From positions 126,840 to 190,839 of the forward strand of contig MFKT01000009.1 in the NCBI GenBank assembly GCA_001781125.1: a DNA stretch of 64,000 nt, read 5' to 3'. Positions 29,951 to 61,700 of the stretch are shown one piece after another (within the stretch, counting starts at the first letter, position 1; every line of letters starts with the position of its first letter). This stretch comes from Candidatus Kaiserbacteria bacterium RIFCSPHIGHO2_01_FULL_53_29. GTDB lineage: Bacteria; Patescibacteriota; Minisyncoccia; Phycocordibacterales; UBA2100. The notes under the pieces were generated by a model. The model worked only from the letters and a program-made list of their open reading frames with translations. It had not been told where the DNA came from and did no database searches. Made by a program: the position numbers and the translations under genes.

Positions 29951-31510
29951 TTAACGCGTAGCATCCGCCGGCGCGTACAGATCATGTACGAACGAGAGAA
30001 GTTTGCGAACATCCCCTTCCGCATCGCGTGAACCGAGCACAATGACTGCGATCGTACGATCTTGTGCCCCCACCTTGACGGTAAACGCCCCCGCATAGGT
30101 CTCCGCCGCTTCGTTTGTTTGGCCGACTTTTCCTCCAATGAGTTTCGCCGGAGCATTTTTAATGATGTTGAAGTTGCGAACATTCTTGAATGCCGGTGGT
30201 CCGTATGCGCTGTTTGCAATGTCACCAGAGGTAATGCCGAAGATAAAGCGACGATTTTCATAGATATGGCGCAGGAGGGTAAAGAGATCTTCAGGAGTCG
30301 AATAGTCGCCCTTCGCGCCTGAAGGATCAGAGAAAACCGTATGCGAGAGATTGATCGCTTTTGCTTTCTCATTCATGTAGGTCACGAACTGACTGCGGCC
30401 GCGCACCGATGCAAAGGTCTCCGCTGCTTCGTTGGATGATTCCTGGAGAAGTAGGAAGAGCAGGTCATACGCGCGCACCTCTGTCCCCGCTTTAAGGCGC
30501 GGTATCGAGGTGTAGACGAGTCCCTCCTTCGGCACGGTAACCGATTTGTCGAGATTGATGTATTCGGTGACGATAAGCGCAGAGACCAATTTTGATATCG
30601 ATGCGATGGGTGCTGCGACCGACGCACCCTTGCTCGAAAGTACGGTGCCGTTTTTCACGTCTGCGACAAGATACCCGGCAGCAGAAACCGGCGGCGCTTT
30701 GAGCTGATAGGTGAACGAGTCGCCCTGTGCTTCGACGTTGTACACGATCACCGGCATTCCGACCACGGTGAGATCGTAGACTTTCTTTGCATCATCAGTG
30801 GAAAGTCGGATGCAGCCACCCGAATACGATGAAGATACTGCTGTCCCGTCCGCATACGTGGGCCAGCCGTGAATGAAAAAGTTGCCCTGAAAATCGAGAC
30901 TCCATGGCTGATTCACCTCGCCGAATGTCGAGAAATGATTTCTCTCTTTCGATTGGATCTGATAGACGCCGGCAGGCGTTTCCCACCACGAACCTACTTT
31001 GCCCTTCGCAAGAACGGGAACCTCTATTTGCAAGACACCCCCGACATATACCACAAGCTTCATACTGGAAAGATTTGCATCAATGAACGACGCCTTTTGC
31101 TCCACGAGATTGCGCTTTACGTTTCTATAGTAATCGGGGTCCGAGAGCGCGGGCAATGCGCCGTATGTAAGAATGGGCCCCGTCGTCGATGCGGCCGATG
31201 AGGGAATGGATATCGAATAGACTACCGGCGGTTTGTACATGACGTACGCGGCAAAGGCGAGTGCCCCGAGTGCAGCAGCCCCAAGCACTGCGGTAGAAAT
31301 CGAAATATGCCATCGCCAAAGATCCGAACCATGCTCCGCGTGAGCAGGCATCTCTACGGCGGGCAAAACGGAACCCGCAGGCGCGAGCTTGGGCACAAGC
31401 TCCGCCTCGCCCCATCCCTCGAGCACCAGACGATTCACAATGATGCTGTCCGACATTCCCGTGCGTCGCAAATATTCTATACGCGGACTTGGATCTTCTG
31501 TTCGTGACAT
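29951..31510 (-). CDS. Fusion: L,D-transpeptidase (YkuD) domain + serine-type D-Ala-D-Ala carboxypeptidase (peptidase S11/PBP5-like) domain, N-terminal TM anchor
   Basis: The YkuD catalytic motif is FFIHGWPTYADG...SGGCIRLS. The S11 domain has ASISKLVSAL (SxxK), SSNEAAE (SxN) and GGKVGQT (KTG-like). Confidence 0.75.
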   Translation of the reverse strand: MSRTEDPSPRIEYLRRTGMSDSIIVNRLVLEGWGEAELVPKLAPAGSVLPAVEMPAHAEHGSDLWRWHISISTAVLGAAALGALAFAAYVMYKPPVVYSISIPSSAASTTGPILTYGALPALSDPDYYRNVKRNLVEQKASFIDANLSSMKLVVYVGGVLQIEVPVLAKGKVGSWWETPAGVYQIQSKERNHFSTFGEVNQPWSLDFQGNFFIHGWPTYADGTAVSSSYSGGCIRLSTDDAKKVYDLTVVGMPVIVYNVEAQGDSFTYQLKAPPVSAAGYLVADVKNGTVLSSKGASVAAPIASISKLVSALIVTEYINLDKSVTVPKEGLVYTSIPRLKAGTEVRAYDLLFLLLQESSNEAAETFASVRGRSQFVTYMNEKAKAINLSHTVFSDPSGAKGDYSTPEDLFTLLRHIYENRRFIFGITSGDIANSAYGPPAFKNVRNFNIIKNAPAKLIGGKVGQTNEAAETYAGAFTVKVGAQDRTIAVIVLGSRDAEGDVRKLLSFVHDLYAPADATR

Positions 31511-37538: not shown

Positions 37539-37802
37539 ATGCAGAAGACCGAGAAGAAACCAAAATTCGATTTTGAGGAGTTGAAGGCGGCGGCGACGAG
37601 CCTGAACGGAAAGACCCGGAAAAAAGTCTTTGAGGAATATTTCGAGCGCTTCGAGGAATTCCCCTCGTACCTCTTCGACAACACCAACGGCATCGATAGT
37701 CGCTTGCAAGAAACCATCCAGGATCTTAGGAACGACCCCGAGACGACCAAGCCGATGCTCAAAGGTATCGACGTCCTTATGCAGCGTCTCCCATCGCTTT
37801 GA
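37539..37802 (+). CDS. Small hypothetical protein
   Basis: 87 aa, charged. It has no recognisable motifs and overlaps the 3' end of the convergent gene by 26 bp. Confidence 0.25.
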   Translation: MQKTEKKPKFDFEELKAAATSLNGKTRKKVFEEYFERFEEFPSYLFDNTNGIDSRLQETIQDLRNDPETTKPMLKGIDVLMQRLPSL

Positions 37803-45244: not shown

Positions 45245-45523
45245 TTAGCACCCACGCGGACTGACTCGCACGCACTTCCGCATGTGGGGGTGGAGGTTCC
45301 GGAGCTGCTTGCGGTGAGCTTTTGCTATTTTTAAACTGCACCGATACGCAAGGACGGTCGCGGTCTCTTGGATGACGTAAGGATGCACGATGAGCGTGAA
45401 GTCTGAGATTTCCTGCATGACTCGCATCGCATCTGCATGCTGCGAATCTACGTCCCGGTAGAACGCAACGAATACCGAGCTATCAACAATACAATGATTA
45501 GACTCCATATGCGATCTCATCAA
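45245..45523 (-). CDS. PIN-domain-like (VapC-type) toxin, apparently truncated
   Basis: CIVDSSVFVAFYRDVDSQHADAMRVMQEI...TLIVHPYVIQETATVLA resembles the N-terminal two-thirds of a PIN domain. At 92 aa it is too short for a full PIN, and the tail looks out of frame. Confidence 0.35.
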   Translation of the reverse strand: MMRSHMESNHCIVDSSVFVAFYRDVDSQHADAMRVMQEISDFTLIVHPYVIQETATVLAYRCSLKIAKAHRKQLRNLHPHMRKCVRVSPRGC

Positions 45524-45674
45524 TTCGCTCTGAGAGATCGCGAGCTCCTCCTGCTTTGCCCTTCACAATATGCTTTTTTGCCAGCGTATAGAATGTCGGA
45601 CGTGCGGAGCGCTTTGCTCCAAAGCGCGTGCGAGATGTGAAAGAAGCTACAAATTTCTTCGTTTGAGTTGTCAT
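45498..45674 (-). CDS. Putative antitoxin partner of the PIN-like gene
   Basis: An internal start, MTTQTKKFVASFTSRTRFGAKRS..., gives 58 aa. It overlaps the PIN-like ORF start, the usual toxin-antitoxin arrangement. Confidence 0.3.
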   Translation of the reverse strand: MTTQTKKFVASFTSRTRFGAKRSARPTFYTLAKKHIVKGKAGGARDLSERIDEIAYGV

Positions 45675-45789
45675 GTCATTAATATAGCATAGACCTGTAT
45701 TGCACTTCAAGCCCCATATCACGACTCTGGCGGGTCGAAAACGCACGACTTTTGTGGATTTTGCACTCCCGCTCCGCTATTCGTGAGAT

Positions 45790-46143
45790 AAAAATGGGTT
45801 GATTTTTCATGGCCCTGGAGATTCGGCTGGAGGCGGAGGAGTCGGCTCTGGCTGTGGCTCGCCGGAGCCTTCGGCAGACTGTGTCTCGCCAGAGGCGGAC
45901 TCCGTCCCGCCGACGGCGGAGGCGGCTGGCGGTTCAGGACTTGGCGCAGGAGAAGGTGTTGTACCGGAGCCTGAGGAGTCACCTCAGGCTCCGGCGGCTC
46001 CCGCCGTCTGCCCCGAGAGCAACGCCTTCAGCTGTTCCTCGTTGACACAGGTGTCGTTGATGCAAAGCTGCTCTTTGGCGCGGAACGTGCGGGCGAAGAC
46101 TTCCTGAATGCCGTTCCCGGCATCGGCGAGCCATTCCGCTAAA
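45790..46143 (-). pseudogene. Degenerate fragment homologous to the 3' end of the giant gene at 46728..62771 (no start codon, frameshifted)
   Basis: The minus-strand frame reads LAEWLADAGNGIQEVFARTFRAKEQLCINDTCVNEEQLKALLSGQTAGAAGA*. This aligns with GIFDSVYARIFTTDELVFKRGTGDELTVKKLCLEDVCVTREEFKALLDKNGTQ near the giant protein's C-terminus. Downstream it continues, frameshifted, into a P/E/A-rich stretch like the giant's tail. Nucleotides 46018-46143 also resemble 47138-47300. Confidence 0.5.
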
Positions 46144-46435
46144 GGCCCGTGCGATGTTTAGTTTTTGGATTGCGCGAGGTATGGAACACGCCAATCACCT
46201 CCACGAGATCATCGGTGATTGTGTAGATCAGCAGCATGGGCAATCCGGGTATCGGACGCTCATACGAGTCGGTCTCGCCATCGAAGCGTGCTGCGCGCGG
46301 AAAGACCTTGAGTGCCTTCACGGCCATATCTACCCGCGCCGCAATGTCCGGCGCATGCGAAGGTGACCGTTTGGCGACGAACGATAGGATGCTTGCCACA
46401 TCGCCGAGTGCTTCGGCGGTGTAGGCCACTTTCAT
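46139..46435 (-). CDS. RelE/ParE-family type II toxin
   Basis: 98 aa. MKVAYTAEALGDVASILSFVAKRSP...LIYTITDDLVEVIGVFHTSRNPK shows the typical ParE-fold layout. Confidence 0.6.
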   Translation of the reverse strand: MKVAYTAEALGDVASILSFVAKRSPSHAPDIAARVDMAVKALKVFPRAARFDGETDSYERPIPGLPMLLIYTITDDLVEVIGVFHTSRNPKTKHRTGL

Positions 46436-46662
46436 AGGGAAGGATTGTAGCTTCGAAAGAGAGCCCGTACTTTGGCCTCTGGTGCATGAACCCGTGGCTT
46501 CGCCAGCCGTCGCTTGATCTCGCGCCGCTGCACAGTGTTCAACTGTGACTGGCTGAGGTCAGAAACACGCACAAGCAACTCTTGCGCGATCACCTCCTGC
46601 GCCTCCTTGGGCAGCCCGGTTACCGCCAAAACAGCTTCTGCTAATCTTTCGCGTGTTGTCAT
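46432..46662 (-). CDS. Putative addiction-module antitoxin (ParD/Phd-like, 'addiction module component' type)
   Basis: 76 aa. MTTRERLAEAVLAVTGLPKEAQEVIAQELL. Its stop overlaps the toxin start by 4 bp. Confidence 0.5.
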   Translation of the reverse strand: MTTRERLAEAVLAVTGLPKEAQEVIAQELLVRVSDLSQSQLNTVQRREIKRRLAKPRVHAPEAKVRALFRSYNPSL

Positions 46663-46727: not shown

Positions 46728-49700
46728 TCATGGCGTTTCCGTTGGTGCCGGAATTTGTTCTGGAGCGGGCTCCGGTGCCGGAGCGGGCGCGGGTTCTGGC
46801 GCGGGCTCCGGAGCGGGTTCTGGCGCGGGAGCTGGCGCGGGAGCTGGCTCCGGCGAAGGTGCGGGCTCGGGGGCGGGAGACGCTTCTTGCGGCGCGGCCT
46901 CGGCCGCGCCGCCTCCCGTATCTGCCGGAGCTTCTTCAACAGGGGCGTCTGCGGACGGCTCCTCGGCAGGCGAGTCCGGAGTCTCGCTTGGCGTGTCTCC
47001 CGCCGGTTCTTCCGCGGGCGGCGATTCAGGAGCAGGGGTTGGTTCTGGCACGGGTTCTGGCGCGGGAGCGGGAACGGGCGAACTTCCTCCCCCACTTGCT
47101 GCGGCAGCTGCCGATTGCGCACTCTGTGTGCCATTTTTGTCGAGCAGCGCCTTAAATTCCTCGCGCGTCACGCAGACATCTTCGAGGCAGAGCTTTTTGA
47201 CCGTGAGCTCATCGCCCGTTCCCCGCTTAAAGACGAGCTCGTCGGTCGTGAAGATGCGCGCATAGACGCTGTCGAAGATGCCGGCCACCGCGTAGATCGC
47301 GCTGTTGTACGCACGAACTACCATACCACCAAGACCCTCGAGCGCACTCTTCAGCCCATCCGATGCATCCGCGAATGCCGCGTACCACGGCGTCGTGGTC
47401 GCGAATTCTTCCCGCGGCGTCGTCGTCGCGTTCACTATTTCCGCCACGCTCGTTGTCGCGACAAGCGCGTCGAATTTCGCGTCGAGTTCTTGGATAGCGC
47501 CGATGGCAGGCGCGATTAGCTGTGTGTAGTCAAGCCCGAGGTAGCCGTTCTCAGGGTCAACGATAGAGATGGTATTGGGGAAATACTGCTGTACATTCTG
47601 CGCGAGAAAGCCAAGCTGAGTGGTGGAAGCCCCTATCATGTTGAAGGAGACTGGATTGAGTTGCAAAATTTTGGACAGCGAGCTGCCGAGAGAGGAGATG
47701 TTCTCCTTAAGCCGCTCGTCGGACACGTCGGTGATGGTGCCGGTGTACTCGATGTCTCCTGTGACGTCGAGCGCGACGGAGGGATCGGTCATGGCGATGC
47801 CGACGTTGCCTGCGTTGGTCACGATGAGGTGCGTCGTCGAAGAGCCGATGTAGAAGGAAGGAGACGTGTCTACGCCGCTCGGGAGGATGGAGAGGCGGCC
47901 CCATGGCGTCGAGGTGCCAATGCCGACGTTGCTCGAGAAGACGGCTCGACCGTCGACGGTGAGAGAAGGTGTGGAAGAAGCGGCTGTTGATGTCGCACTC
48001 TGGCCGATGCGGAGGCCGGTGCGGACGAACATTTCTTCCGCCATCGTGTATCCGGCATCAGAGACAGTGAGGTACGGGTAGTCGGCGCTGTTGCCGATGT
48101 GGAGGAGCGGCGAGGAGAATTGGTAGGTGCTGAGTGAGTCATTGAAGTCATCAATAAACGCCACGCGGTTGGGCGAGAGGGCGGCAAGAGCGGGAGTATC
48201 CTCTATACCGGAAATAGTGAGGCTGCTTCCTACTTGAGACCAAGTTGAGCCGTTAAATTCATAGACTGTGAGTAAATCGTGGTCTGAATGGAAGAACGCC
48301 ACGCGGTTCGGTGACATCGCCGCAAGCGCAGGAAAAGCCGCGTGATAGGCTGTAAGAGCCAGTGAGCTCCCGACTTTTGTCCATGTCGTGCCATTAAATT
48401 CGTATGTCGAAAGGCTATCAAGAGTTCGATCAGTGTACGCAATGCGGTTTGAATTAAGCGCTGCGATGGCGCCTTGAGAAAAACTTCCCGACGGTGTAAT
48501 GCTACTCCCGATAGATGACCATACGGATCCATTAAACTCATATGCTTGCACGACGCCAGTATCGTTATCAAGGAGAGCGATACGATTTGGGGCCAGTGCG
48601 GCAAGACTTGGAGTCTGACCTATACTACTCACTGTCAATCCACTACCTATTTGAGACCAACTAGAAACTCCGAATTCGTACACTCGGAGCGAGTCGTTAT
48701 TCGCGTCAAGATATGCGATGCGACTGGGAGAAAGCGCGGCAATCCCAACAACTTGATTACTGATCGTTATTGCAAGAGCGCTTCCCTGTTGAGTCCACGA
48801 GGCTCCGTCGAAAACATATTTTCTGAGTGAACCGCTACCGCTTACGAATGCCACAGAGTTGGGCGAAAGTGTCGCTATTGTAGGATAAACATGCGATAGA
48901 GATAGCGTGTTCCCCACCTGCGCCCACGTCTGTGCGAGTCCTGCTGATGAGATGGTCAATCTTCCTGTCGTCGAAGCATTGGAGCCGATGCCGAAATTTC
49001 CATTTGCCGAAAGATACATCGACGATGTGGCGGTGAGTGTGGTGCCGACGTACGAGAGCGTCTGCCCTGCGGTGCCGGATGGGAGTGAATCTCCGGCGAT
49101 GAGACACGAGCCAGAGATGGAGAAACATCCTCCCGCCAGATCAATGCCTCTTGCAAATGTGGAGGTCGCGGCAGTGCCGGTCACATTGAGGTATGGAGTA
49201 TCGAGTCCGTTGTAGATAGTGGAGGTGGCGGAGGCGTAGAAGTTGGCGGATGCGTTGATGGAGAAAAGCGAACCGGGAGTCGTCGTCCCGATACCGACGT
49301 TTCCAGCGTTGGTGACGATGAAGTGTGTCGTGGATGAACCGATGTAGAAAGAGGGGTCAGTGCCAACGCCGCTCGGGAGGATGGAGACCTTGCCCCATGG
49401 AGTGGAAGTCCCGACACCGACGTTGCTCGAGAAGACGGCTCGACCGTCGACGGTGAGGGATGGTGTGGAAGAAGCGGCTGTTGATGTCGCACTCTGGCCA
49501 ATGCGCAGACCGGTGCGGACGAACATCTCTTCCGCCATCGTGTATCCGGCATCAGAAACAGTGAGGTACGGATAGTCGATGCTGTTGCCAACGTGGAGGA
49601 GCGGCGAGGAGAATTGGTAGGTGCGGAGGGAGTCGTTGGTGACGTCAATGTATGCGACGCGGTTGGGCGAGAGCGTTGCTAGCGCAGGGATCGCGACGCC

Positions 49701-52700
49701 CGAGATCGAAAGGCTGCTTCCGACTTGGGACCACGAGGCGCCGTTCCACTCATACACCGTAAGTGAGTCGTTGGTCGCGTCGATTAAGGCGACGCGCGAA
49801 GGCGAGAGAGCGGTCAGCGCCGGGCTCGTGGCGGACGCGATCGTGAGGCCGCTGCCGATCTGCGACCAGGTTGAGCCGTTGAATTCATAGGTACGCAGGG
49901 ATGTATTGGCGTCGTCGAGGAACGCGATACGATTCGGTCCGAGCGCCGCCATGCCCGCGGCGGCCACGCCGCCTCCGATGGTCGTACTCGTCCCGACTTG
50001 ATTCCAAACAGAGCCGTTGAACTCGTACGTGCGCAATTGATCGTTCGTCGTTTCAATGAACGCTATGCGGTTCGGTGAGAGGCCGGCGAGTGCCGGAGGT
50101 GTCCCCGATGTGATAGTGAGACCGGTTCCGATCTGTGACCAGGTAGAGGTAGCGCTGAATTCATATACGCGCAGCTCATCGTTAGTGGCGTCAATAAAGG
50201 CGATGCGGTTCGGTGAGAGCTCCGCCATCGCTGCTGCCGCAGACGTGGTGATGCCCATACTGACACCAAGTTGCGACCAACTGACGCCGTTCCATTCGTA
50301 CGCCGCGAGGACGTTGTTGTTGTTCTCAAAGAGGGCAACACGATTCGGCGATAGCGCGGCCATGGCAGGACCGCCGGCGCCTGTCACCGTCTTTCCACTC
50401 CCCACCTGCGCCCACGTCTGCGCGAGTCCTGCTGAGGAGATGGTCAGCTTCCCTGTCGTCGAGGCGTTCGAGCCGATGCCGAAGTTGCCTGAGGCGGACA
50501 TATAGAGCGTCGAGGTGGCAGTGAGTGTGGTGCCATCCTCTTGATAGTAGGGCATGTATCCCGCAGTTCCGGAAACTACCGTCCCACCGGAGTTGATCAT
50601 CAAGCACGTGCCCGCCACAGAGAAACAGCCGCTGGAGATATTCACGCCGTTGGCGAACGTGGAAGAGGCTGAGGTACCGGTGAGGTTAAGGTATGGAGTG
50701 TTGAGACCGTTGTAGATGGTGGAGGTTGCGGAGGCGTAGAAGTTGGCGGAGCCGTTAACGGAGAAAAGCGAAGCAGGGGTTGAACTGCCGATGCCCACAT
50801 TCCCGGTCGACGTCATGATGAAGTGCGTTGCGGTCGAGGAGCCGATGAGGAAAGAGGGGTTCGTCCCGTTCCCCGGATCGATGGAGACCTTGCCCCACGG
50901 CGTCGACGTGCCAACACCGACGTTGCTCGAGAAGAGCGCCCGGCCGTCGACGGTGAGGGATGGAGTAGAAGATGCAGCTGTCGAGGTGGCGCTCTGGCCG
51001 ATGCGGAGAGTGGTCCGCACGGACATCTCCTCCGCCATCGTGTGACCGGCGTCGGAGACGGTGAGGTAGGGGTAGTCCGCGCTGTTGCCGATGTGGAGGA
51101 GGGGGGAGGAGAATTGGTACGTGCGAAGCTCGTCGTTGTTCACATCAATGTAGGCAACACGGTTTGTCGACATCCCAGCGAGTGCCGGGATCGCAACCGT
51201 CGAGATCGACAGGTTGCTGCCCACCTGGGTCCAGCCGGAACCATTGAATTCATACGTCTGCAATACGTCGTTCGTCGCGTCGATGAAGGCGACACGGTTT
51301 TGGGACAGGGTCGCGAGCGCGGGAGACGTTGCCGACGCAATAGTCAGTCCGCTTCCCTGCTGTATCCACGTGGAGCCGTCAAATTCATACACGCGCAAGG
51401 AAGTGGCATTGTCATCGATAAACGCGATACGGTTTGGCGATAGCGTCGTCATTGCGGCTGCGGTCATGCCCGTGAACGAGACTCCGGTTCCCACCTGCGA
51501 CCACGTCGAGCCATTGAGTTCGTAGACGCGAAGCGAATCGTTGGTCGCGTCGATGAACGCAACGCGATTTGGCGAAAGCGCAGTGAGCCACGGACTGCCC
51601 ACCGTAGAGATAGCAAGCTCCGTTCCCACTTGCGACCACGTCGACGTCGCGCTGAGTTCATACACGCGCAGCGCATCATTCGTCCCGTCAATGAATGCGA
51701 CGCGGTTCGGCGAGAGCGCAGCCACCGCTGCCGCGGCGGCAGTTGAAATGGAGTAGCTCGGTCCGACTTGCGCCCAGGCTGCGCCGTCGAACTCAAAGTT
51801 CTTGAGCACATTGTTGTTGTTTTCAAATACCGCGACTCTGTTCGGTGAAAGGACAGTGATCGTAGGACCGCCGGAGCCCGAGATCGCTTTACCACTTCCG
51901 ATCTGCTGCCACGTCTGAGCGAGTCCCGCTGAGGAGATCGTGAGCCGTCCCGTGGTGGAAGCGGTGACACCGATACCTACTTTTCCTGCTGTTGAAAGGT
52001 AGAGCGATGATGTGGCCGTGAGCGCGGTACCGGTGTTTTCGTAGAACGGGAAGTAGCCTTGAGTTCCTGAAGTGATCGTTCCGCTTCCCTCAGTAAGACA
52101 GCTGCCATTCAAGGCGAAACACCCGCCGGAGAGATCGATGCCGTTGGCGAAGGTGGAGCTCGCGCTCGAGCCCGTGATGTTGAGGTATGGCGTCTCGAGA
52201 CCGTTGTAAATAGTGGAGGTGGCGGAGGCGAAGAAGTTGGCGGAGCCGTTGATGGAAAAGAGCGAGCTCGGCGTCGTTGTGCCGATGCCGACGTTGCCCG
52301 TATTCGTGACTATGAGATGCGCAGCGGTTGTGGAGCCGATGAAGAGTGAAGGCTGTGTGTTGTTGCCACTCACATCTATGGAGAGCCTTCCCCACGGTGT
52401 CGACGTGCCGATACCGACGTTACTTGAGAAGACTGCGCGGCCGTCGACGGTGAGTGCGGGGGTGGAACTCGCCGCGGTCGAGGTTGCGCTCTGCCCGATG
52501 CGGAGTTCTGTACGAACATTGAGTGCTTCTGCACTTGTGAGTCCAGCATCGGAAACGGTGAGGTACGGGTAGTCACTGCTGTTGCCGATGTGGAGGAGTG
52601 GGGAGGAGAATTGGTAGGTGCGGAGGGAGTCATTCGTGACATCGATAAACGCGACGCGATTCGGTGAGAGGGCGGCGAGAGCGGGAATGGCTACCGTTGC

Positions 52701-55700
52701 GATGGAAAGACTGTTCCCAACCTGCGCCCAACTAGAGCCGTTCCACTCATACACTCTAAGCGAATCGTTGGTGGCGTCGATAAAGGCGACGCGGGTCGGC
52801 GAGAGAGCGGTGAGGGTGGGAACGCCTACGTCGGAGATGGCAAGACCAGTACCTATCTGCGACCACACCGTACCGTTCAGTTCGTACATCCGCAGCGACG
52901 CATTGCTATCGTCGATGAAGGCGACGCGATTCGGGGAGATGGTGGCAAGGGCGGGCGTACCGACCGAGGAGATGCTCGTACTCGCGATCTCCGACCATGT
53001 GGAGCCATTGAATTCGTACGTGCTCAACTTGTCGCTTGTGGAATCGATAAGGGCAATGCGGTTGGGAGAGAGGCCAGCGAGAGCGGGCGTGCCGACCGAT
53101 CCGATCGTGAGACCGCTCCCGACGGTCGACCAGGTAGACGTCGCGCTGAATTCGTATACGCGGAGGGTGTCGTTGGTGCCTTCGATAAATGCGACGCGAT
53201 TCGGAGAAAGTGCGGCGAGAGCAGCAGTCGCCGACGTGGTGATGGGATGACTCACGCCCAGTTGCGCCCATCCGGCGCCGTTCCATTCGTATGTCGCGAG
53301 TACGTTGTTATTGTTCTCGAACAGTGCTACTCGATTGGGAGAAAGGGCAGCGAGAGCGGGTGCGCCCGCACTAGAAACCGTAAGCCCACTCCCCACCTGC
53401 TCCCATGTCTGCGCGAGGCCGGCGGAGGAGACAGTGAGACGACCTGTCGTCGAGGCGTTGGAGCCGATGCCAAAGTTTCCGTTTGGTGAGAGATAGGTCG
53501 ACGAAGTGGCAGTCAGGGTAGTACCGACGTACGAGAGCGTCTGGCCTGCCGTGCCTGATGGGAGAGAATCTCCGGCGGTGAGACACGTACCACTAACCGA
53601 GAAACATCCTCCCGCAAGGTCGATGCCGCGGGCGAAGGTCGAAGTGGCGGACGTGCCGGTGATGTTGAGATATGGGGATTCGATTCCGCCGGTGAACGTG
53701 GTCGTCGCCGGAGAGCCGAACGTAAAGGCGCCGCTCGTCCCGCTGATTGCAGCGGCTGCGACGCTGGATGTTGCGGAGTACGTGGACGTGGCGAGGAAGA
53801 AGGAGCCGCCAGCGTTGCGGAAGGTCCACGAATTGTTGGTACCGTCGCCAAGCGCGAACTGCGGACCGGATGAATTTGAAGAGGTTAAAGTCCAATTCGG
53901 CGTCGTCGTACCAATGCCAACCTTACTGTTCCCGAGTACGGATAGAATTGAATTCGTCGAACTCGCAGTCGCAATGTTGAAGATGTTTGCGGTAGTGCCG
54001 ATCGTCGATGAGGACGAAAGGAAAGAGCCGGAGCCGGTGACGAGGAGCGAGTTGCCTACGGTGAGCCCGCCCCTAAAGTCGCCATCAGAAGCAAAGAGGT
54101 TGTTGCGGAGCGAGAGCGTGCCTGCCTCGATACCACCGGCTTCAAGTTGTTGAACGTATGCGCCGCCGAGGTCCCAGACCTCGAAGGAATTTGACGTGCC
54201 TGTATCCGCAAAATATGCATAGCGGCCTTGGACAAAGACTCCCCTTCCGGCATTGTTTAAGTTATACGTTGCAACCCTCACTGGCGCGGCAGGATTTGAC
54301 ACGTCCCATATTTGGAACCCGTTTGCGGCACTAATATTTGCTATATAAGCATATCGGCCTTGAACGAAGAGGCCCTCGGAACCACCCGGGATTGTGCTCA
54401 GCGAGATGCGAGTCGGCAATGCCGGATTTGAAACATCCCAGATCTCAAAATCGGTTGATTGGTTCGTAATGTATGCATAGCGACCCTGAATATATATCGC
54501 ACTGCAACAGGAATTTTTAGTATTGCTCGATACACGGAAGGGTGCAGCGGGGTTGGATACATCCCATATCTCGAACGTGCTTTGATTACTACCTGCCAGA
54601 TACGCGTATTTACCTTGCACTCGTATACTTCCGGTAACACCAGCGGTACTTGCAGAGACGCGCACAGGTGCCGCCGGATTTGAGACGTCCCAAATTTCAA
54701 ATCCGTCAGTAGCGACGTTATCAGATAGGTATGCATACCGTCCCTGAACGTAAATATTCCTCCCGGTTTGATTCAAGGTATTTTGCGAAACGCGTATCGG
54801 TGCTGAAGGATTGGAGACGTCCCAAATTTCAAATCCGTTAGTGGCAGTTAGATCCGCTATGTAAGCATAGTTGCCCTGAACCTGGATACTTACGCCGCTG
54901 CCATTGAGTGTATTGCTCGAAAGTCGGATCGGTGACTCCGGATTCGAAACATCCCAAATTTCAAATGCATTGGTAGTGCCTAGATCGACCAAGTAGGCAT
55001 AGCGGCCCTGCACATATATACCGAAGCCGTTTGTGTTAAGGGTTCCTTGTCCCACCCGCCGTGCCGTCGTTGTTCCCGCCATGACACTAAGTTGTGCGAT
55101 GGTTGATGAGGCAGTGCCCCCGATAATGACCTGGCCGGTGTTGTTGATGGAAAATAGATTCAGATTGGCGGTGTTGGAGAGCGTGGAGGATGCTATCTGA
55201 AAGAGCATCGAGTTGGTCTCGCCGTTGCTGGCCTGGATGGAAAACTTTGCGTACGGCGTGGTAGAGCCAATGCCGACACGGCTAGTGGTGTCTATATAAA
55301 GAGTCGATGTGGCCGTGAGGGTCGTGCCGACGTATGAGAGCGTCTGGCCTGCGGTGCCAGTTGGGAGTGAATCTCCGGCAGTGAGACACGAGCCAGAGAT
55401 GGAGAAACATCCGCCGGCGAGATCGATACCGCGGGCGAAGGTCGAGGTCGCGGCGGTGCCGGTGATGTTGAGGTATGGAGTATTGAGTCCGTTGTAGATA
55501 GTAGAGGTGGCACCGCTGTAGAACTGCGCGGCGCTTGCGACGGAGAAGAGAGAGCCGGGGGTGGTGGTGCCGACACCGAGGTAGCCGTTGGCATTGACGG
55601 TGAGGATGCCTTGGTTGGTGGAGCTTGCGATCTGGAAGAGGTTGCTGCCGGTGGTTCCGTTGACTACGAAGTTGCCGCCCGGAGTCGTGGTGCCGATGCC

Positions 55701-58700
55701 GACGTTGCCGGCGGAAGTGATGCTTAAACGAGCGTCTGACAAAGTGATGTTACTGGAATCCGCCGCATTGTTTGTTGCAAGATGTAGCGTGCCAAGTCCA
55801 CCAGGAGCGCGCCGTTCAAAAAAGATACCGCCTTTTCTGTTGGTGTCGGTCGTTACATCAGACACCTCAAACAACAATTGAGCAGTTACCCCCGTTGTTA
55901 CAGAACTAGTCTGAATGAGGATCGTACCATCAGAATTATCAGAAATATGTAATTTTTTGTTCGGAAGAGCAGTTCCGATGCCCACCTTTCCCGCTGTCGA
56001 GATGAAGAGCGAGGAGGTGGCGGTGAGCGTCGTGTCAACGTATGAGAGGGTCTGCCCTGCCGTGCCTGATGGGAGAGAATCTCCGGCGATGAGACACGAG
56101 CCAGAGATGGAGAAACATCCGCCGGCGAGGTCGATGCCCCGCGCGAAGGTGGAGGTCGCAGCAGTGCCGGTGATGTTGAGGTACGGTGATTCGATGCCGC
56201 CCGTGAACGTGGTCGTCGCCGGAGAGCCGAAAGTAAAGGCGCCGCTCGTCCCGCTGATTGCAGCGGCGGCGACAGTTGAGGTCGCAGAGTATGTAGAGGT
56301 CGCGAGGAAGAAACTGCCGCCTGCGTTCCTGAACGTCCACGCATTGTTCGTGCCGTCGGCAAGTGCGATCTGTGGGCCGGTTGACGAGGCCACCGTAAGT
56401 ACTGAGGACGGCGTGGTCGTGCCGATACCGACAGAGCGACCGGTCGTAAAGATGTTGGAGTTGGTAGTGGATGCGTATGTCCACACCTCGGGCGAGTTGG
56501 CGCGCTGCGTCCAGTTCTTGTTTTGATTGGCGGTGGAGCTGATAGGCGCTCGGTATATGACGTCGGACAAGCCCCCGCCACCCCCCAGTCCACCGAACAG
56601 AAATACGTTTTCTCCGATTACAGCAAGTGGTGAGTATCCTAGTACACCGGGGAGGCTCTTGCCAGTGTCATCCCAGTTAGTTGGATCGGATACGGGTGCA
56701 CGGTAGATGACTTTTGAACCCTGCCCACCGAACAAATAAATATAATCTCCCGCTATCAGCACCGATGAGGCCCCTAGATTACCTGGCAGCACTGCTCCCG
56801 TATTGCTCCAACTTAGGGGATTAGAGACGGGAGCGCGATAAATCACATTGGTAAAATCGGATCCATATCCACCGAGTAAATATACATAATCGCCGATAGT
56901 AACGACGCTTGAGTACGCGAGTCCCCCGGGAAGGGTCGCGCTGGTATTCGACCAGGCCGTTGGATTCGATACTGGAGCGCGGTAGATACTTGTAAGCCCG
57001 TTGGAACCTTGATCGCCTCCAAAGAAGTAAACGTAATTACCAATAGTTGCAATACTGCTTCCTTCAATCGAATCAGGTAATGTCGCACCAGTGTCGCTCC
57101 AACTGGTGGGATTGGAAACGGGGGCGCGGTAAATGACGTTGGTCACGGAGGTACCGTTAAAGCCGCCAAAAAGATAGACGTAATCTCCAATAACCGAGAT
57201 GTTTGAATGTGACAGATTCCCCGGAAGAGTTGCCCCCGTGTCACTCCAGCTTGTGGGGTTGGAGAGGGGGGCGCGGTAAATGACATTCGTATGCCCGTTC
57301 CCGGTTGTGCGACCACCGAAAAGATAAATGTAATCACCTATCACTGCCAACTTTGAGTACGCGAGAGTGGAGGGAAGCGTACTTCCCGTGTCCACCCAAC
57401 TTCCCGGATCGAATTGGTAGCGGACCTGGGAGACCATGGAAAGAGCTGTCCAGTTGGATGAGAGCGCGGTCGTGGAAGCGTATGCATTTCGGAATTCGAG
57501 CATGCCACCGTTCTCGCGAAGACCATAGCCTTGTGCGCCCGCGCCGTATGCACCGCCGAAGTTGAGGTAGCGACTGCCCCCGTCGAGGTGGATGTTGCCG
57601 TACACGGCGAGTGTCGTGGAAGCGTATGGCGTCGTCGTACCGATGCCGAGGCTCCCCGCACTCGTAAAGGTGAGCGTGGATGAAGAAGTGAGTGTGCTTC
57701 CGGCAGAGAAGTATGCGAGCTGATTTGCTGTGCCAGAGCCTCCGATACCGCCGAGGCCCGCTGCGGAGAGACAGGTACCACTGATGGAATAGCAGCCGCC
57801 GGCGAGATCGATGCCGCGTGCGAACGTCGAGGTCGCAGCAGTGCCGGTGATGTTGAGGTAGGTGGAGGAGAGTCCATTTGAAAATGTTGATGTTCCACTT
57901 CCCTGCACGATGAGATTGCCTGTTGTCGTTGCTCCTCCGTATATGGTGAGGCCCGTGGTCTGTGTGCCACCGCCGATCGTTGAGCTCGCCGTCGAGATGA
58001 GCCCGGCGAAGGTCGAGAGGCCCGAGACACCGAGCGTCGAGCTAATGGTCTGCGCGCCGGTGAGCGCGAGAGTGGAGCCGTCGAACGTGAGGTTGGACGA
58101 TGATGTCAGGCTATCGGCATCCGAGTAGTACGCGAGACGATTGGCCGCACCAGCACCATCGAGGCCGCCGAGTCCTGTGGCAGAAAGACATGAGCCAGAG
58201 ATGGAGAAACAGCCGCCCGCGAGATCAATGCCCCGCGCGAAGGTGGAGGTGGCGGCTGTGCCGGTGATGTTGAGGTATGGTGATTCGATTCCGCCGGTGA
58301 ACGTGGTCGTCGCCGGAGAGCCGAAGGTGAACGCGCCGGTGCTGGCACTGATAGCGGCTGCGGCGACGGTGGAGGTCGCTGAGTATGTAGAGGTCGCGAG
58401 GAAGAAGGAGCCGCCAGCGTTGCGGAAGGTCCACGAGTTGTTGGTGCCGTCGCCGAGTGCGAACTGCGGACCTGTCGAGGATGCGATGGTCAGCGAGAAG
58501 AACGGTGTCGTCGTGCCGATGCCCACTTGCCCTGTCGACTTCCATATGCCCGATGGTAGATATGTCGAACCCGAAGAATCGATGTGCAAGGCGGTCGTCG
58601 AGGCGCTCGTGACCGCTTCAAAGATGTTGCCGGAGCTCGGTCCCCAGACGGTGAGCTTGGAGTACGGCGTCGAAGTGCCGAGGCCGAGCTTGCCACCGCT

Positions 58701-61700
58701 GCTGAGCGAAGTGAGTCGCAAGAGACTGCTTCCGGAAGTCGTGTAGTTGAGAGTGATGGAGTCGAGGACGGGCGTGTCGGAGCCGCCGCTAAAGATGACG
58801 CGGTAGTAGAAGTTGCTGCCGGTCCACGCGAGCGTGGAGAGCGAGACAGAGTTGCTCCCGACCGAGAGCGTGGTCGAAGCATTTGTAGTGCCCGCGGCAC
58901 TCTTCCACGTGCTGTTGTCCTGTGAGAACTGCACGCTCGCCCATGTGCCTGAGGGCAGCGCGGAGAGGGTGTAGTCGAGGGAGTCTATTGAAGAGACCGT
59001 ACCGCCCTCCGAGGAGAGGAGGTTGGTGGAGGTGGTGGTGCCGACGGACTTGTATGCGCCTGCTTCCACGGACCTGGAATATTGATAGACCGTGTCGTTT
59101 CCGATACCAACGATGTACATTTTCGAGCCGTCCGTCTTGAAGGCCATTCCGTACGGCTGGCTTTCTTGCGCTGCCACGCTCTTGGAGTCTGAGTCGTACG
59201 TTGCCGTGGAAATATCCCATGCGGTTGACAATGTATATTGGTAGACGGAGTCGCCCGTTGTATTGCCGAGCACATACATTTTCGTACCGGCCGATGAGAA
59301 CTCTACTTTATAGGGTTCACCGGTTTGAGACGATACGCTCTTTGATACCGAGTCGTACGATGCGGTCGAGACGTCCCAGGCAGAGGAAAGAGAATACTGC
59401 CAGACGCGCCCCCCAGTAATACCGATGACGTACATTTTTGTGCCGTCCGTCTTGAATGTTACGCCCACGGGATAAGTCTCTTGAGCACTGACGCTTTTAG
59501 ATTTTGATGCGTACGTGGCTGTAGAGACGTCCCACGGCGTAGAGAGTGTGTATTGATACACCGTGTCGTTCACGACACCCACGAGGTACATCTTTGATCC
59601 GTCGGTGCTGAATGCCATGCCGTACGGATCAGACTCCTGCGAACTAGCGGAGACACTCTTGTTGGCGTAGGAAGCTGACGAAACGACCCAGGCGGAAGAA
59701 AGCGTGTATTGAAAAACCGTATCGTCCGATCCATTGGCGAACCTAAGCGCATACATCTTGGTGCCATCGTCGTTAAAATTGACGGCTACAGGAAAGTCAG
59801 ATATTTGTTCACTTAAACTTTTGGATACGCTGTCGTATGAGAATTCGCTCACGTTGTTAGTATTGAGGGAGAGCGTCACCTGCCCACCACTCACGGTGGT
59901 CTGTGTCGCCGAGTCGATCTTGCTCGAATCGGCGTACGAGTCGGAATTGGTACTCGAGCCTCCCCCGCCGGTGATGTCGAGGGGTGTGAGGCTTGAGCTG
60001 GTCGCTGCGAGAGAAAGGAGGGAGCCCGGAGTGGTGGAGCCGATACCGAGGCGTGTGCCGTCGAAGACGAATCCGGAATTTGATGAGAGCGTCGTCGAGT
60101 CAGAAAAGAATGCGACGCGACTCGCAGCTCCCGAGCCGCCGACGCCGCCGAGGCCCGTGGCGGACAAACAAGTACCACTAATAGAGAAACATCCTCCCGC
60201 GAGGTCAATGCCTCTTGCAAATGTGGAAGTGGCGGCTGTGCCCGTGATGTTGAGGTACGGACTCTGGATGCCGGAAGAGAACGTGCTCGTAGCAGAACCA
60301 TTGAGATAGATGGAGCCGGTGCCGACCTTGAGCCCGCCCGCGATCTCGACATTCCCAGCGAAGGTCGACGAGGCCGAAGTCCCCTGGACGATGAGCGCTT
60401 GCGTCGTCGTCGCGCCGCCGTACACCGTGAGCCCGGTGGTTTGTCCGCCGCCGCCGATAGTTGAACTTGCTGTTGAAATGAGCCCGGCGAGCGTGGAGAG
60501 ACCGGAGACACCGAGTGTCGAGCTGATCGTCTGCGCGCCGGTAAGCGCGAGCGTCGAGCCGTCGAACGTGAGGTTGGACGATGATGTCAGGCTATCGGCA
60601 TCCGAGTAGTACGCGAGACGATTGGCCGCACCTGCCCCATCGAGGCCGCCGAGTCCTGTGGCAGAAAGACACGCGCCCGAGATGGAGAAACATCCGCCCG
60701 CCAGATCGATGCCGCGGGCGAAGGTGGAGGTGGCGGCGGTGCCCGTGATGTTGAGATACGGACTCTGAATGCCTGCGGCAAATGTTGAAGTCGCACTCGT
60801 CGAAGTGGCGGTGATGTAGTTGACCGTCGGGCTCGTCGAAGCCGCAAGCGCGCCCGTGCCGCCGCTCGAGTAGAGCCAGCCTTGACCGAAAGTTGCTGCG
60901 CCCGTGCCGCCGCTTGCAACGCCGAGCGTTCCGGAGATAGTAGAGAGCGTCGTCGATGCGGTCCATGTCGGGATTCCATTGAGATACGCGAGAATGTATC
61001 CGGCAGTACCGGTCGTCGTCGTTGAAAGCGCGCCGGTGCCGTTGCCGTATGGAATTGCGCTTGCAGCGATGTTGGCCCATCCCGTGCCACCGTTTGCGAT
61101 CGGAAGAATTCCCGTCACGTCGCTCGCGAGGTCGACAAGCGCTGTCGTCACCGCTCCCGCGACCGCTTTCAAGAATCCGGTGACGTTGGAAAAGGTAAAC
61201 GAATTGGATGCGACGAGAGCCGAGGTCGAGGCGGTGCCTGTGACGCCGAGATTGGTGCTCGTCGCGTTGACAAGCGTGGTTGCACCGGTAACCCCGAGCG
61301 TGCCCGCGACGGAAAGATTCCCCGCGGAGTCGATGGTGGTCGTCGCTGTGCCGCCGAAGTAGGCGGTGCCGAAGTTAGAGAAATTGGTTGAAGACGCACC
61401 AGCAGAAAAGATCTGAAGTGCAGTCCATGTGTTGGCTGCGGAGAGGCTGGCGCCCGCGCCTCCAGCTGATATGCACGTGCCGTCTATCGCGAAGCAGCCG
61501 TCCGCAATATCGATGCCGTTGGCAAAGCTCGAGGTCGCGGTGCCTGACACCGTGAGCGCGTTCGTCGATGCCCCGGCGGAAAACGTTTGAAGGGCCGACC
61601 ACGTGTTGGCGTTCGTCGTGTCGAGTGTGATCGTGCCATCGCTCGTTATCGTGCCGCCTGCGAGACCAGTGCCCGCAGTGATGGATGAGATGCCGCTATT

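What the first reader, a model, noticed from the sequence alone, without database searches (positions are those of the whole stretch)
48900..60800. About ten copies of an uncharacterised Cys-pair motif PYLNITGTAATSTFARGIDLAGGCFSISGSCL in the giant protein
The motif recurs with high fidelity; antisense echoes sit at about 49.1, 53.6, 55.4, 56.1, 58.2 and 60.2 kb. It always has two Cys spaced by seven residues (GGCFSISGSC), often followed by GDSLPSGTAGQTLSYVGTTLTATS. I cannot place it in a known domain family. The conserved Cys pair in an otherwise Cys-poor extracellular protein suggests a disulfide-stapled or metal-binding knuckle between fibre segments.
Basis: seen in the sequence. Interest (0 to 1): 0.55.

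Follow-up and report, generated by a model that had tools for sequence, protein, structure and literature searches.

The report
Paired-cysteine repeat in giant fibre protein
The repeated two-cysteine motif is real: it is a strongly conserved but undescribed building block of giant, phage-tail-fibre-like surface proteins of ultrasmall (CPR/Patescibacteria) bacteria and of some phages, and it most likely acts as a disulfide staple at the end of each fibre segment.

Summary
One 5347-aa ORF (window 46728-62771, minus strand) carries 11 copies of Y-L-N-I-T-G-T-A-A-T-S-T-F-A-R-G-I-D-L-A-G-G-C-F-S-I-S-G-S-C-L, against 0.01 expected by chance. These copies hold 22 of the protein's 28 Cys. The copies are about 84% identical in amino acids, but only about 56% of shared residues use the same codon. 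That points to purifying selection, not recent duplication.

No Pfam, NCBIfam, PHROG or PDB entry covers the motif. It is nevertheless widespread: 1281 representative proteins match, mostly 1000-6000 aa with several copies each. The consensus is ATSTFANGINLxxGCFAINGTC. In 555 instances the two Cys occur together in 494; the rest are almost all gaps, and none is a real single Cys. The spacing is 6 residues, or less often 7.

Genome hits are almost all Patescibacteria. At least 18 IMG/VR contigs also carry the motif in fibre-like proteins, one beside terminase, portal and head genes.

The host protein has an N-terminal HTH, a membrane anchor, "GNVGIGTTTP" capping-loop motifs, beta-propellers and a C-terminal S74 chaperone with SDERLK. 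The closest known relatives are S74 tail fibres and Bdellovibrio MAT fibres.

AlphaFold2 puts a short hairpin between the Cys. A disulfide is the best-supported role but is not shown. Intra- versus inter-chain bonding is open.

The parts
46728..62771 (-). Giant ORF, 5347 aa: membrane-anchored, tail-fibre-like surface protein that carries all 11 motif copies
   Evidence: domain hits
61470..61562 (-). Cys module 1 (aa 404-434, divergent): NALTVSGTATSSFANGIDIADGCFAIDGTCI
60666..60758 (-). Cys module 2 (aa 672-702)
60165..60257 (-). Cys module 3 (aa 839-869)
58185..58277 (-). Cys module 4 (aa 1499-1529)
57768..57860 (-). Cys module 5 (aa 1638-1668; GCYSISGTC)
56091..56183 (-). Cys module 6 (aa 2197-2227)
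55383..55475 (-). Cys module 7 (aa 2433-2463); centre of the unit modelled with AlphaFold2
53580..53672 (-). Cys module 8 (aa 3034-3064); starts the first of four ~500-aa super-repeats
52095..52187 (-). Cys module 9 (aa 3529-3559)
50601..50693 (-). Cys module 10 (aa 4027-4057)
49101..49193 (-). Cys module 11 (aa 4527-4557)
47571..47723 (-). Peptidase_S74 intramolecular chaperone domain (aa 5017-5067); catalytic motif S5017-D-E-R-L-K5022 at window 47706-47723
   Evidence: PF13884, E 1.1e-12; SDxxxK motif as defined in PMC10769870
62589..62732 (-). N-terminal HTH_17-like domain (aa 14-61), presumably cytoplasmic
   Evidence: E 2.6e-5, just below the Pfam cut-off; the same domain sits at the N-terminus of 33 of 152 homologues
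62328..62408 (-). Single strongly hydrophobic segment (aa ~122-148): the predicted membrane anchor
   Evidence: highest 19-residue Kyte-Doolittle window in the whole protein
51105..51920 (-). Six-bladed NHL/Pizza-like beta-propeller (aa 3618-3889) between Cys modules 9 and 10; one of four paralogous copies
   Evidence: pLDDT above 90; Foldseek E about 1e-11 to Pizza6 and NHL domains
56472..57554 (-). Kelch-type beta-propeller (aa ~1740-2100), approximate limits
   Evidence: PF24681, E 1.9e-20
54072..55094 (-). LVIVD-repeat beta-propeller (aa ~2560-2900), approximate limits
   Evidence: PF08309, E 4.9e-32

Best explanation
The motif is the last, cysteine-bearing copy of a ~20-residue shaft repeat with the header A-T-S-T-F-x-x-G-[IL]. 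It occurs in a membrane-anchored, S74-type, tail-fibre-like giant surface protein of a Patescibacteria (CPR) bacterium. The two Cys flank a short beta-hairpin with an (N/S)-G turn. They most likely form a disulfide that staples the end of each shaft segment. Directly after it comes a Gly/Ser-rich hinge, from which the next module starts: a beta-helix with a capping loop, a beta-propeller, or another module. On this reading the protein is a trimeric stalk carrying beta-propeller 'beads', and the 11 staples stabilise it mechanically and keep segment ends folded outside the cell.

Shown: the repeat, its anatomy, its strong selection, the both-or-neither Cys pairing, its spread in CPR proteins and phage fibre proteins, and the S74/capping-loop context.

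Inferred: trimeric state (from the S74 domain and MAT-fibre homology), extracellular location (from the single N-terminal anchor), and the disulfide itself. The bond may be intrachain (favoured slightly) or interchain.
For: - Real and selected: 11 copies against 0.01 expected. Near-identical peptides with many synonymous differences.
- Family-wide: 1281 representative proteins at E<=1e-3 and 448 at E<=1e-10, mostly multi-copy giants.
- Conservation: in 555 instances from 146 proteins, both Cys columns are 89% Cys and nearly all the rest are gaps. G before Cys1 is 91% and the turn G is 78%.
- Pairing: 494 instances have C/C. Two rows carry Cys in only one column: one is cut by the end of a protein fragment and one looks misaligned. 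Anchored on the header, 363 have both Cys, 101 neither and 0 the first only.
- Spacing is 6 residues (320) or 7 (43), as expected of a closed loop of variable length.
- Homologues have an even number of Cys in 107 of 146 (p = 1.6e-8), and C-x6-C is by far the commonest nearest-neighbour Cys spacing.
- AlphaFold2 places a two-stranded hairpin between the Cys in three independent modules: strands 62-64/67-69, 34-35/38-39 and 531-533/536-538. pLDDT there is 82-85 in the unit model.
- Position: a median of 56 aa after a 'G[IV]G[TS]' capping-loop motif and 50 aa before the next. Half of all units follow one non-Cys copy of the same repeat at 19-20 aa spacing. A G/S-rich linker and variable modules follow.
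- Fibre context: S74 domain with SDERLK. A PDB hit to Bdellovibrio MAT fibre Bd2439 over the capping loop, E 3e-4. MAT fibres are intertwined trimers (PMC10769870).
- The motif occurs in phage-contig fibre proteins.
- Fibre parts have pLDDT below 50 as a monomer, while the propeller in the same model is above 90. This fits a fold that depends on oligomerisation.
Against: - No coordinates were available, so no S-S distance could be measured.
- In the hairpin register read from DSSP (two-residue turn), Cys2 pairs with the residue two after Cys1. The Cys are therefore diagonal on one face rather than directly cross-strand. That geometry is poor for an intrachain disulfide unless the conserved Gly before Cys1 forms a bulge.
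- No Dsb or VKOR gene lies in the window, though only 64 kb of the genome was seen.
- The environment of many CPR bacteria is anoxic.
- The trimeric state is inferred, not modelled.
- The unit model is only moderately confident (mean pLDDT 72).
Confidence: 0.5

Rival explanations
1. Interchain cystine clasp. In the trimer the three hairpins meet at the three-fold axis through their small-residue faces (Cys1, Ala/Ser, Cys2, Gly). Cys1 of one chain bonds Cys2 of the next. This gives a ring of three disulfides that locks the chains covalently and in register at the end of each segment, like the cystine knots at the ends of collagen triple helices.
For: The DSSP hairpin register puts both Cys on the same face, next to small residues (A/S 76%, G), and opposite the hydrophobic face F/Y, I/V, V/L/I. 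This geometry suits a partner from another chain better than an intrachain bond. The modules sit exactly where the three chains must part to form separate propellers and then rejoin. Both-or-neither pairing fits this reading equally well.
Against: No multimer model was possible. The 6- or 7-residue spacing variants would shift one Cys to the opposite face in a regular hairpin. That is harder to reconcile with a fixed symmetric ring than with a simple closed loop. The collagen analogy is from general knowledge, not tested here.
Confidence: 0.25
2. Metal-binding site. The six thiolates of a trimer (or two per chain plus water) coordinate a metal ion on the fibre axis, as the His-x-His motifs of T4 gp37 and gp12 do.
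For: Metal ions on the three-fold axis are common in phage fibres (general knowledge), and ions lie along the axis of the Bd2133 tip. The Cys are invariant and lie on the same face.
Against: There are only two conserved ligands per unit, with no conserved His, Asp or Glu in the 74 profile columns. All-Cys axial sites have no precedent that I know of in fibres. Variable spacing is unusual for a metal site. The profile does not match any solved metal-binding protein.
Confidence: 0.08
3. No covalent or ligand role. The Cys are reduced, and serve as small, moderately hydrophobic residues packing the core of the hairpin or fibre. They are conserved only for size and shape.
For: CPR bacteria often live in anoxic groundwater and sediments (general knowledge). 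No oxidoreductase gene was seen in the window.
Against: If only size mattered, Ser, Ala or Val replacements at one of the two positions should occur. None was found: 494 C/C instances against no genuine single-Cys case, while neighbouring columns vary freely. Even Cys counts across homologues also argue for pairing.
Confidence: 0.12
4. Artefact of recent internal duplication or gene conversion: the motif looks conserved only because the copies are young.
For: The gene contains large internal repeats, including four ~1.5-kb super-repeats.
Against: The copies differ at about 44% of codons that encode the same residue. The same motif, with the same Cys, recurs in 1281 representative proteins that are less than 50% identical to each other, and in phage contigs.
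Confidence: 0.02

Closest known systems
Bdellovibrio bacteriovorus MAT (mosaic adhesive trimer) fibre proteins, S74 subgroup (Caulton et al., Nat Microbiol 2024, PMC10769870; PDB 8OL4, 8OND, 8ONC)
   Same: Both are cell-encoded, phage-tail-fibre-like surface fibres. Both have an S74 chaperone/protease with an SDxxxK motif at the C-terminus. Both have recurring 'capping-loop' motifs: MAT V-G-G/N-pi-x-x-P-x-x-x-L, here N-V-G-I-G-T-T-T-P-x-x-L, 17 copies. The only significant PDB sequence match of this protein is to Bd2439 over that loop (E 3e-4). A weak match to Bd2133 covers the same element. Both belong to organisms that must attach to other cells.
   Different: The solved MAT fragments show no Cys-pair module. 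MAT proteins start with a signal peptide and a conserved ~130-aa beta-rich domain; this protein starts with an HTH_17-like domain and a membrane anchor. MAT fibres carry one adhesive tip; this protein has seven or more beta-propellers strung along 5000 residues. The lineage is Patescibacteria, not Bdellovibrionota.
Phage tail fibres and tailspikes with a C-terminal intramolecular chaperone (K1F endosialidase 3GW6, T5 pb1 4UW8; Pfam PF13884)
   Same: An S74 domain with a Ser-Lys dyad. Per-chain globular domains flanked by trimeric stalk, as in endosialidase (general knowledge). The Cys module itself occurs in fibre-like proteins on phage contigs beside terminase, portal and head genes, or matching tail-fibre PHROGs.
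   Different: No match in 50,697 GenBank phage records. No PHROG or Pfam fibre repeat covers the motif. The gene is chromosomal, between ATP synthase, toxin-antitoxin and ribonucleotide reductase genes.
Disulfide-closed beta-hairpins with C-x6-C, for example thanatin CNRRTGKC (recalled from memory, not tested here)
   Same: Two Cys separated by six residues, with Gly at the sixth position of the loop. The peptide is extracellular. A hairpin is predicted between the Cys.
   Different: Thanatin is a free 21-residue peptide, whereas this is a module inside a fibre. The predicted register here places the Cys diagonally, not as a direct cross-strand pair.
Cystine knots at the ends of collagen triple helices (type III, FACIT) (general knowledge)
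   Same: A pair of closely spaced Cys at the end of a trimeric rod segment, just before a flexible or non-rod region.
   Different: The fold and sequence are unrelated. Interchain bonding here is only a hypothesis.

Membership tests
S74 (intramolecular chaperone) tail-fibre/tailspike superfamily - host protein | C-terminal Peptidase_S74 domain | tested here: met
   PF13884, E 1.1e-12, 48.5 bits (cut-off 22), aa 5017-5067. PHROG tail-fibre families match the same region.
S74 (intramolecular chaperone) tail-fibre/tailspike superfamily - host protein | SDxxxK catalytic Ser-Lys motif | tested here: met
   S5017-D-E-R-L-K5022. The motif definition is quoted in PMC10769870.
S74 (intramolecular chaperone) tail-fibre/tailspike superfamily - host protein | Trimerisation and self-cleavage | not testable with these tools
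   Only monomer AlphaFold2 was available. Fibre parts have pLDDT below 50 as a monomer.
Bdellovibrio MAT fibre superfamily | Beta-helix capping-loop motif V-G-G/N-pi-x-x-P-x-x-x-L | tested here: met
   17 G[IVLF]G[TSVA]x2-3P motifs. phmmer hit to Bd2439 (8OL4) over this element, E 3e-4. Consensus taken.
Bdellovibrio MAT fibre superfamily | Signal peptide followed by a conserved ~130-aa beta-rich N-terminal domain | tested here: inconclusive
   The N-terminus here is an HTH_17-like domain plus a single hydrophobic anchor, not a signal peptide.
Bdellovibrio MAT fibre superfamily | Presence of the Cys-pair module | tested here: not met
   Profiles A1 and A3 find no Cys-module match in any PDB chain, including MAT fragments. 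The paper does not mention cysteine; its 'disulphide' mentions concern the tip domains.
Described phage fibre repeat families (Pfam and PHROG fibre, collar, T4 gp34/37-type repeats) | Significant match of the motif to a curated model | tested here: not met
   There are no Pfam, NCBIfam or PHROG hits over the motif at E up to 10. tblastn against GenBank phages finds no match.
Zinc-knuckle / Cys-based metal site | Three or four conserved ligands (Cys/His/Asp/Glu) per site | tested here: not met
   Only two conserved Cys per unit. No conserved His, Asp or Glu in the 74 profile columns over 555 instances. A site shared between three chains could not be tested.
Disulfide-stapled beta-hairpin | Cys occur strictly as a pair | tested here: met
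   494 C/C with no genuine single-Cys instance. Anchored on the header: 363 both, 101 neither, 0 first only. Even Cys counts in 107 of 146 homologues.
Disulfide-stapled beta-hairpin | Hairpin between the Cys, with the thiols within bonding distance | tested here: inconclusive
   A hairpin is predicted in three modules. The register inferred from DSSP places the Cys diagonally.
Disulfide-stapled beta-hairpin | Extracytoplasmic, oxidising location | not testable with these tools
   One N-terminal hydrophobic anchor implies an outside location. No Dsb or VKOR gene lies in the 64-kb window, and the rest of the genome was not seen.

The most novel reading that the evidence does not exclude
The module is an interchain cystine clasp. 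At each of the 11 sites the three chains of a >5000-residue trimeric fibre would be covalently ring-locked and held in register, just where they part to form separate beta-propellers. CPR cells and the phages that carry the same module would then share a previously unknown way of building very long, segmented, covalently registered fibres.
Probability: 0.25. Interest if true: 0.6.

Novelty: new variant of a known kind. Interest (0 to 1): 0.45.

Why it matters
Giant surface proteins are among the few candidates for how ultrasmall CPR/Patescibacteria attach to their host cells, and almost all are annotated 'hypothetical'. This work defines a sharply conserved, easily searched signature: ATSTFxxG[IL]x[LI]xxGC[FY]xxxGxC. 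It marks a large class of such proteins, with 1281 representative clusters. It ties them to S74/MAT-type trimeric fibres and to phage fibre proteins. The signature could seed a new domain model for annotation. It offers a compact target for structural work (~100 aa between two capping loops). It also gives a testable idea of how multi-thousand-residue fibres are stabilised. The sharing of the module between cells and phages bears on how CPR bacteria acquired their attachment machinery.

Tried and rejected
- The word-indexed protein search with the 75-aa and 121-aa profiles returned only 3 and 15 short fragments. The full HMMER scan was needed to see the family.
- PDB sequence searches with profiles A1 and A3 gave nothing significant for the motif.
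- tblastn against GenBank phages found no match.
A degenerate DNA pattern was used instead; it gave 24 hits, of which 7 were chance matches by translation.
- Model coordinates are not exposed, so no S-S distance could be measured.
- Literature searches on CPR giant proteins, tail fibres and disulfide formation in CPR found nothing on this motif.
- The recent-duplication explanation was rejected on synonymous divergence. A single-chain zinc knuckle was rejected for lack of ligands. A prophage origin for the gene was rejected because the neighbours are housekeeping genes.

Full report
**1. The observation**

The region lies inside a single ORF, window 46728-62771 on the minus strand, encoding 5347 aa.

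A scan for Cys-x5-9-Cys finds 11 copies of the motif. The first Cys of each is at aa 426, 694, 861, 1521, 1660, 2219, 2455, 3056, 3551, 4049 and 4549. These copies hold 22 of the protein's 28 Cys.

The degenerate DNA pattern for G-C-[FY]-x3-G-x-C occurs 11 times in the 64-kb window. All 11 are on the minus strand inside this ORF. Shuffles give 0.01 expected.

Five further copies exist. One of them, divergent, lies at 61.47-61.56 kb, just beyond the stated range.

The sequence after the motif comes in three forms rather than one.

**2. The fidelity is selection, not youth**

DNA repeat families that cover the motif are only 60-88% identical.

In the 31-aa core, the ten close copies average 84% amino-acid identity and 77% nucleotide identity. 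Only 56% of codons that encode the same residue are the same codon. The peptide is therefore being held constant while the DNA drifts.

**3. The host protein and its surroundings**

- Pfam finds an HTH_17-like domain at aa 14-61, Kelch repeats, LVIVD repeats and IFT80-type propeller repeats. It also finds a Peptidase_S74 intramolecular chaperone domain at aa 5017-5067.
- NCBIfam adds PA5033-family propeller matches.
- The only strongly hydrophobic stretch of the whole protein is aa ~122-148. The likely topology is therefore N-terminus inside and about 5200 residues outside.
- The S74 catalytic motif is present as S5017-DERL-K5022.
- The composition is 49% Ser, Thr, Gly and Ala, and 0.5% Cys.
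- AlphaFold2 was run on one ~540-aa super-repeat (aa 3520-4060). It gives a six-bladed propeller at pLDDT above 90, matching Pizza6 and NHL domains at Foldseek E about 1e-11. Both flanking fibre parts, including two Cys modules, fall below pLDDT 50.
- The neighbouring genes are cellular:
  - ATP synthase epsilon and beta;
  - ParE and PIN toxin genes;
  - ribonucleotide reductase and Mur ligases;
  - an L,D-transpeptidase;
  - a large sugar and glycosyltransferase cluster.
- The window comes from ENA metagenome contig ERZ4903055 k141_2557389.

**4. The motif as a family**

No Pfam, NCBIfam or PHROG model covers the motif, even at E up to 10. No PDB chain matches it by sequence. GenBank phages give no match.

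A full HMMER scan of 1.84 billion representative proteins finds 1281 proteins at E<=1e-3, 448 at E<=1e-10 and 51 at E<=1e-30. Most are 1000-6000 aa with several copies each. The best hit has 23 matched stretches.

Re-extracting instances from the top 152 proteins gives 555 aligned units in 146 proteins. The consensus is A-T-S-T-F-A-N-G-I-N-L-x-x-G-C-F-A-I-N-G-T-C-[VLI], followed by a Gly/Ser run.

The evidence on the Cys pair is as follows.
- Both Cys columns are 89% Cys, and nearly all the remainder are gaps.
- Jointly there are 494 C/C rows. One row is truncated and one looks misaligned. There is no genuine single-Cys instance.
- Anchoring on the header alone, 363 units have both Cys, 101 have neither and none has only the first. 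The 101 are the non-Cys copies of the same repeat.
- Six residues lie between the Cys in 320 cases and seven in 43.
- Homologues have an even Cys count in 107 of 146 (p = 1.6e-8). A spacing of i, i+7 dominates all nearest-neighbour Cys distances.

Source annotations are only 'hypothetical protein', or a name taken from a propeller domain.

**5. Anatomy of the unit**

The Cys unit is a modified last copy of a ~20-residue repeat. About half of all units follow one non-Cys copy of the same header at 19-20 residues.

In the window protein, 'ATSTFSSGIQSPYLNITG' is followed by 'ATSTFARGIDLAGGCFSISG-x-C'. The first Cys therefore takes the place of the Tyr of the preceding copy (direct reading).

The unit lies a median of 56 aa after a G[IVLF]G[TSVA] motif and 50 aa before the next. 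In the window protein the distances are 56 or 104 aa upstream, and 45-49 aa downstream for four of the copies.

After the second Cys comes a Gly/Ser-rich linker and then varied modules.

AlphaFold2 was run on a 121-aa unit with a 26-sequence alignment. Mean pLDDT is 72, and 78-87 over residues 21-70. The only regular secondary structure in the Cys region is a hairpin, strands 62-64 and 67-69, with the Cys at positions 61 and 68. The same hairpin appears at both modules of the second model.

From the DSSP strings I infer a two-residue (N/S)-G turn. This places F/Y, I/V and the residue after Cys2 on one face. Cys1, Ala/Ser, Cys2 and Gly lie on the other face, so the two Cys would be diagonal neighbours.

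**6. Who carries it**

A scan of one genome per GTDB species returned 62 loci. Nearly all are titled Patescibacteria, Parcubacteria, Paceibacteria, Kaiser-, Adler-, Lloyd- or Magasanikbacteria, or 'Saccharibacteria'. A few contigs are labelled Planctomycetota, Verrucomicrobia, Gammaproteobacteria or Methanomassiliicoccaceae. One of these is a 190-kb contig labelled Verrucomicrobia that encodes a 549-aa protein with three modules. I did not check that label.

In IMG/VR, one locus came from the protein-based scan. A DNA pattern for GCF[AS][IV]NGxC gave 24 hits. By translation, 17 of these are true units with the ATSTF header and 7 are chance matches. The carrier proteins are about 490-1700 aa (open-frame lengths; some are cut by the locus end) with one to three modules.
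- L072 also encodes a large terminase, a portal and a major head protein.
- The L066 carrier matches tail-fibre PHROGs.
- The L064 carrier matches a baseplate wedge / tail-fibre connector PHROG and lies beside HNH and endolysin-like genes.

The module is thus shared between CPR cell-surface giants and phage fibre proteins.

**7. Closest known systems**

A PDB sequence search with aa 4900-5130 gives one significant hit: Bdellovibrio Bd2439 (8OL4), E 3e-4. It aligns over 'NTGNVGIGTTT..L.V'. Profile A3 weakly touches Bd2133 (8OND) at the same kind of element.

These are MAT fibres, described by Caulton et al. 2024 (PMC10769870). They are intertwined trimeric beta-helices on the predator's surface, with or without S74. 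They have recurring 'capping loops' of consensus V-G-G/N-pi-x-x-P-x-x-x-L, and they resemble the K1F and T5 fibres.

The window protein has 17 such motifs. I therefore read it as a CPR counterpart of S74/MAT-type fibres. It differs in its N-terminus (HTH plus anchor), in having many propellers along the stalk, and in the Cys module, which the solved MAT fragments lack.

**8. Mechanism**

The strict pairing, the variable loop length, the hairpin, the even Cys counts and the outside location all point to a structural disulfide. I favour a staple at the end of each shaft segment, just before the hinge to the next module.

| Reading | Probability |
|---|---|
| Disulfide, within a chain or type left open (best explanation) | 0.50 |
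| Interchain disulfide clasp | 0.25 |
| Cys reduced, packing role only | 0.12 |
| Metal site | 0.08 |
| Duplication artefact | 0.02 |

- Intrachain closure is tolerant of the 6- or 7-residue spacing. It has a precedent in C-x6-C hairpin peptides, recalled from memory.
- The predicted register and the small-residue face make an interchain ring around the three-fold axis a serious rival.
- A metal site is unlikely for want of ligands.
- A purely steric role is unlikely because neither Cys is ever replaced alone.
- The duplication-artefact reading is refuted.

**9. Novelty and limits**

The host architecture is a member of a known kind: S74/MAT-like fibres. The Cys-pair repeat unit is an undescribed variant element of that kind. 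It is conserved across more than a thousand sequence clusters and has no curated model.

Three things remain unshown: the oxidation state of the Cys, the oligomeric state of the protein, and its biological target.

Noticed in passing
window 62328-62732 (aa 14-148 of the giant protein): The giant surface protein begins with an HTH_17-like (excisionase/MerR-type) domain, followed by its only hydrophobic anchor. The same N-terminal domain sits at residues 1-100 of 33 of 152 motif-bearing homologues, sometimes in two tandem copies. A cytoplasmic DNA-binding-type fold on a giant fibre is unexplained.
   Followed up: partly
window 47700-62000, 17 sites (e.g. aa 909, 1363, 2399, 2500, 3495, 4493, 4950): Recurring 'GN[VF]GIGTTTPxxxL' motifs correspond to the 'capping loops' of Bdellovibrio MAT fibre beta-helices. 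The only significant PDB sequence hit is Bd2439, 8OL4.
   Followed up: partly
window 874-27250: A large sugar-modification cluster. It contains a Polysacc_synt_2 dehydratase, a DegT aminotransferase, two CMP-sugar-type cytidylyltransferases, HisF/HisH-like genes, methyltransferases, several epimerases, many GT4 glycosyltransferases and an ABC exporter. It resembles nonulosonic-acid pathways and might glycosylate the Ser/Thr-rich fibre. This was not tested.
   Followed up: no
window 45245-46662: Toxin-antitoxin-like small genes lie directly downstream of the giant gene: a ParE toxin (46139-46435, minus strand) with a 76-aa upstream partner ORF (46432-46662), and a truncated-looking PIN domain ORF (45245-45523).
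   Followed up: partly
all 11 modules, e.g. window 55458-55475 (Y-L-N-I-T-G): The unit contains an N-x-T sequon, YLN[IVL]TG. Across 555 homologous instances the Asn is 54% and the Thr 55% conserved. Whether it is glycosylated is unknown.
   Followed up: no
aa 2755-2756 (window ~54504-54509) and aa 5195/5200 (window ~47172-47189): The remaining extracellular Cys also come in pairs. One is a vicinal C-C in an LVIVD blade. The other is a C-x4-C in the region released after S74 cleavage.
   Followed up: no
L072:11227-13521, L085:2993-6436, L067:6070-8856: Phage-contig fibre proteins that carry the Cys module share a C-terminal ~110-aa tip domain with two conserved Cys ('..VQC.TNTGT...DGTN.M...EKRY..IG.P.S.P....C..'). 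It is probably a receptor-binding domain.
   Followed up: no
L019:2563-4209: A 549-aa protein with three Cys modules lies on a 190-kb contig whose record is titled Verrucomicrobia. This is either a mislabel or bin contamination, a prophage, or real spread beyond Patescibacteria.
   Followed up: partly
window 37777-40299 (minus strand): An 840-aa protein combines MurL_N and MurL_epimerase_C with Mur ligase domains, a MurL-type fusion, next to the ribonucleotide reductase genes.
   Followed up: no
window 27265-28776 (minus strand): A 503-aa protein with a Lamin Tail Domain (PF00932, E 5e-17), upstream of an L,D-transpeptidase / D-Ala-D-Ala carboxypeptidase fusion at 29951-31510.
   Followed up: no
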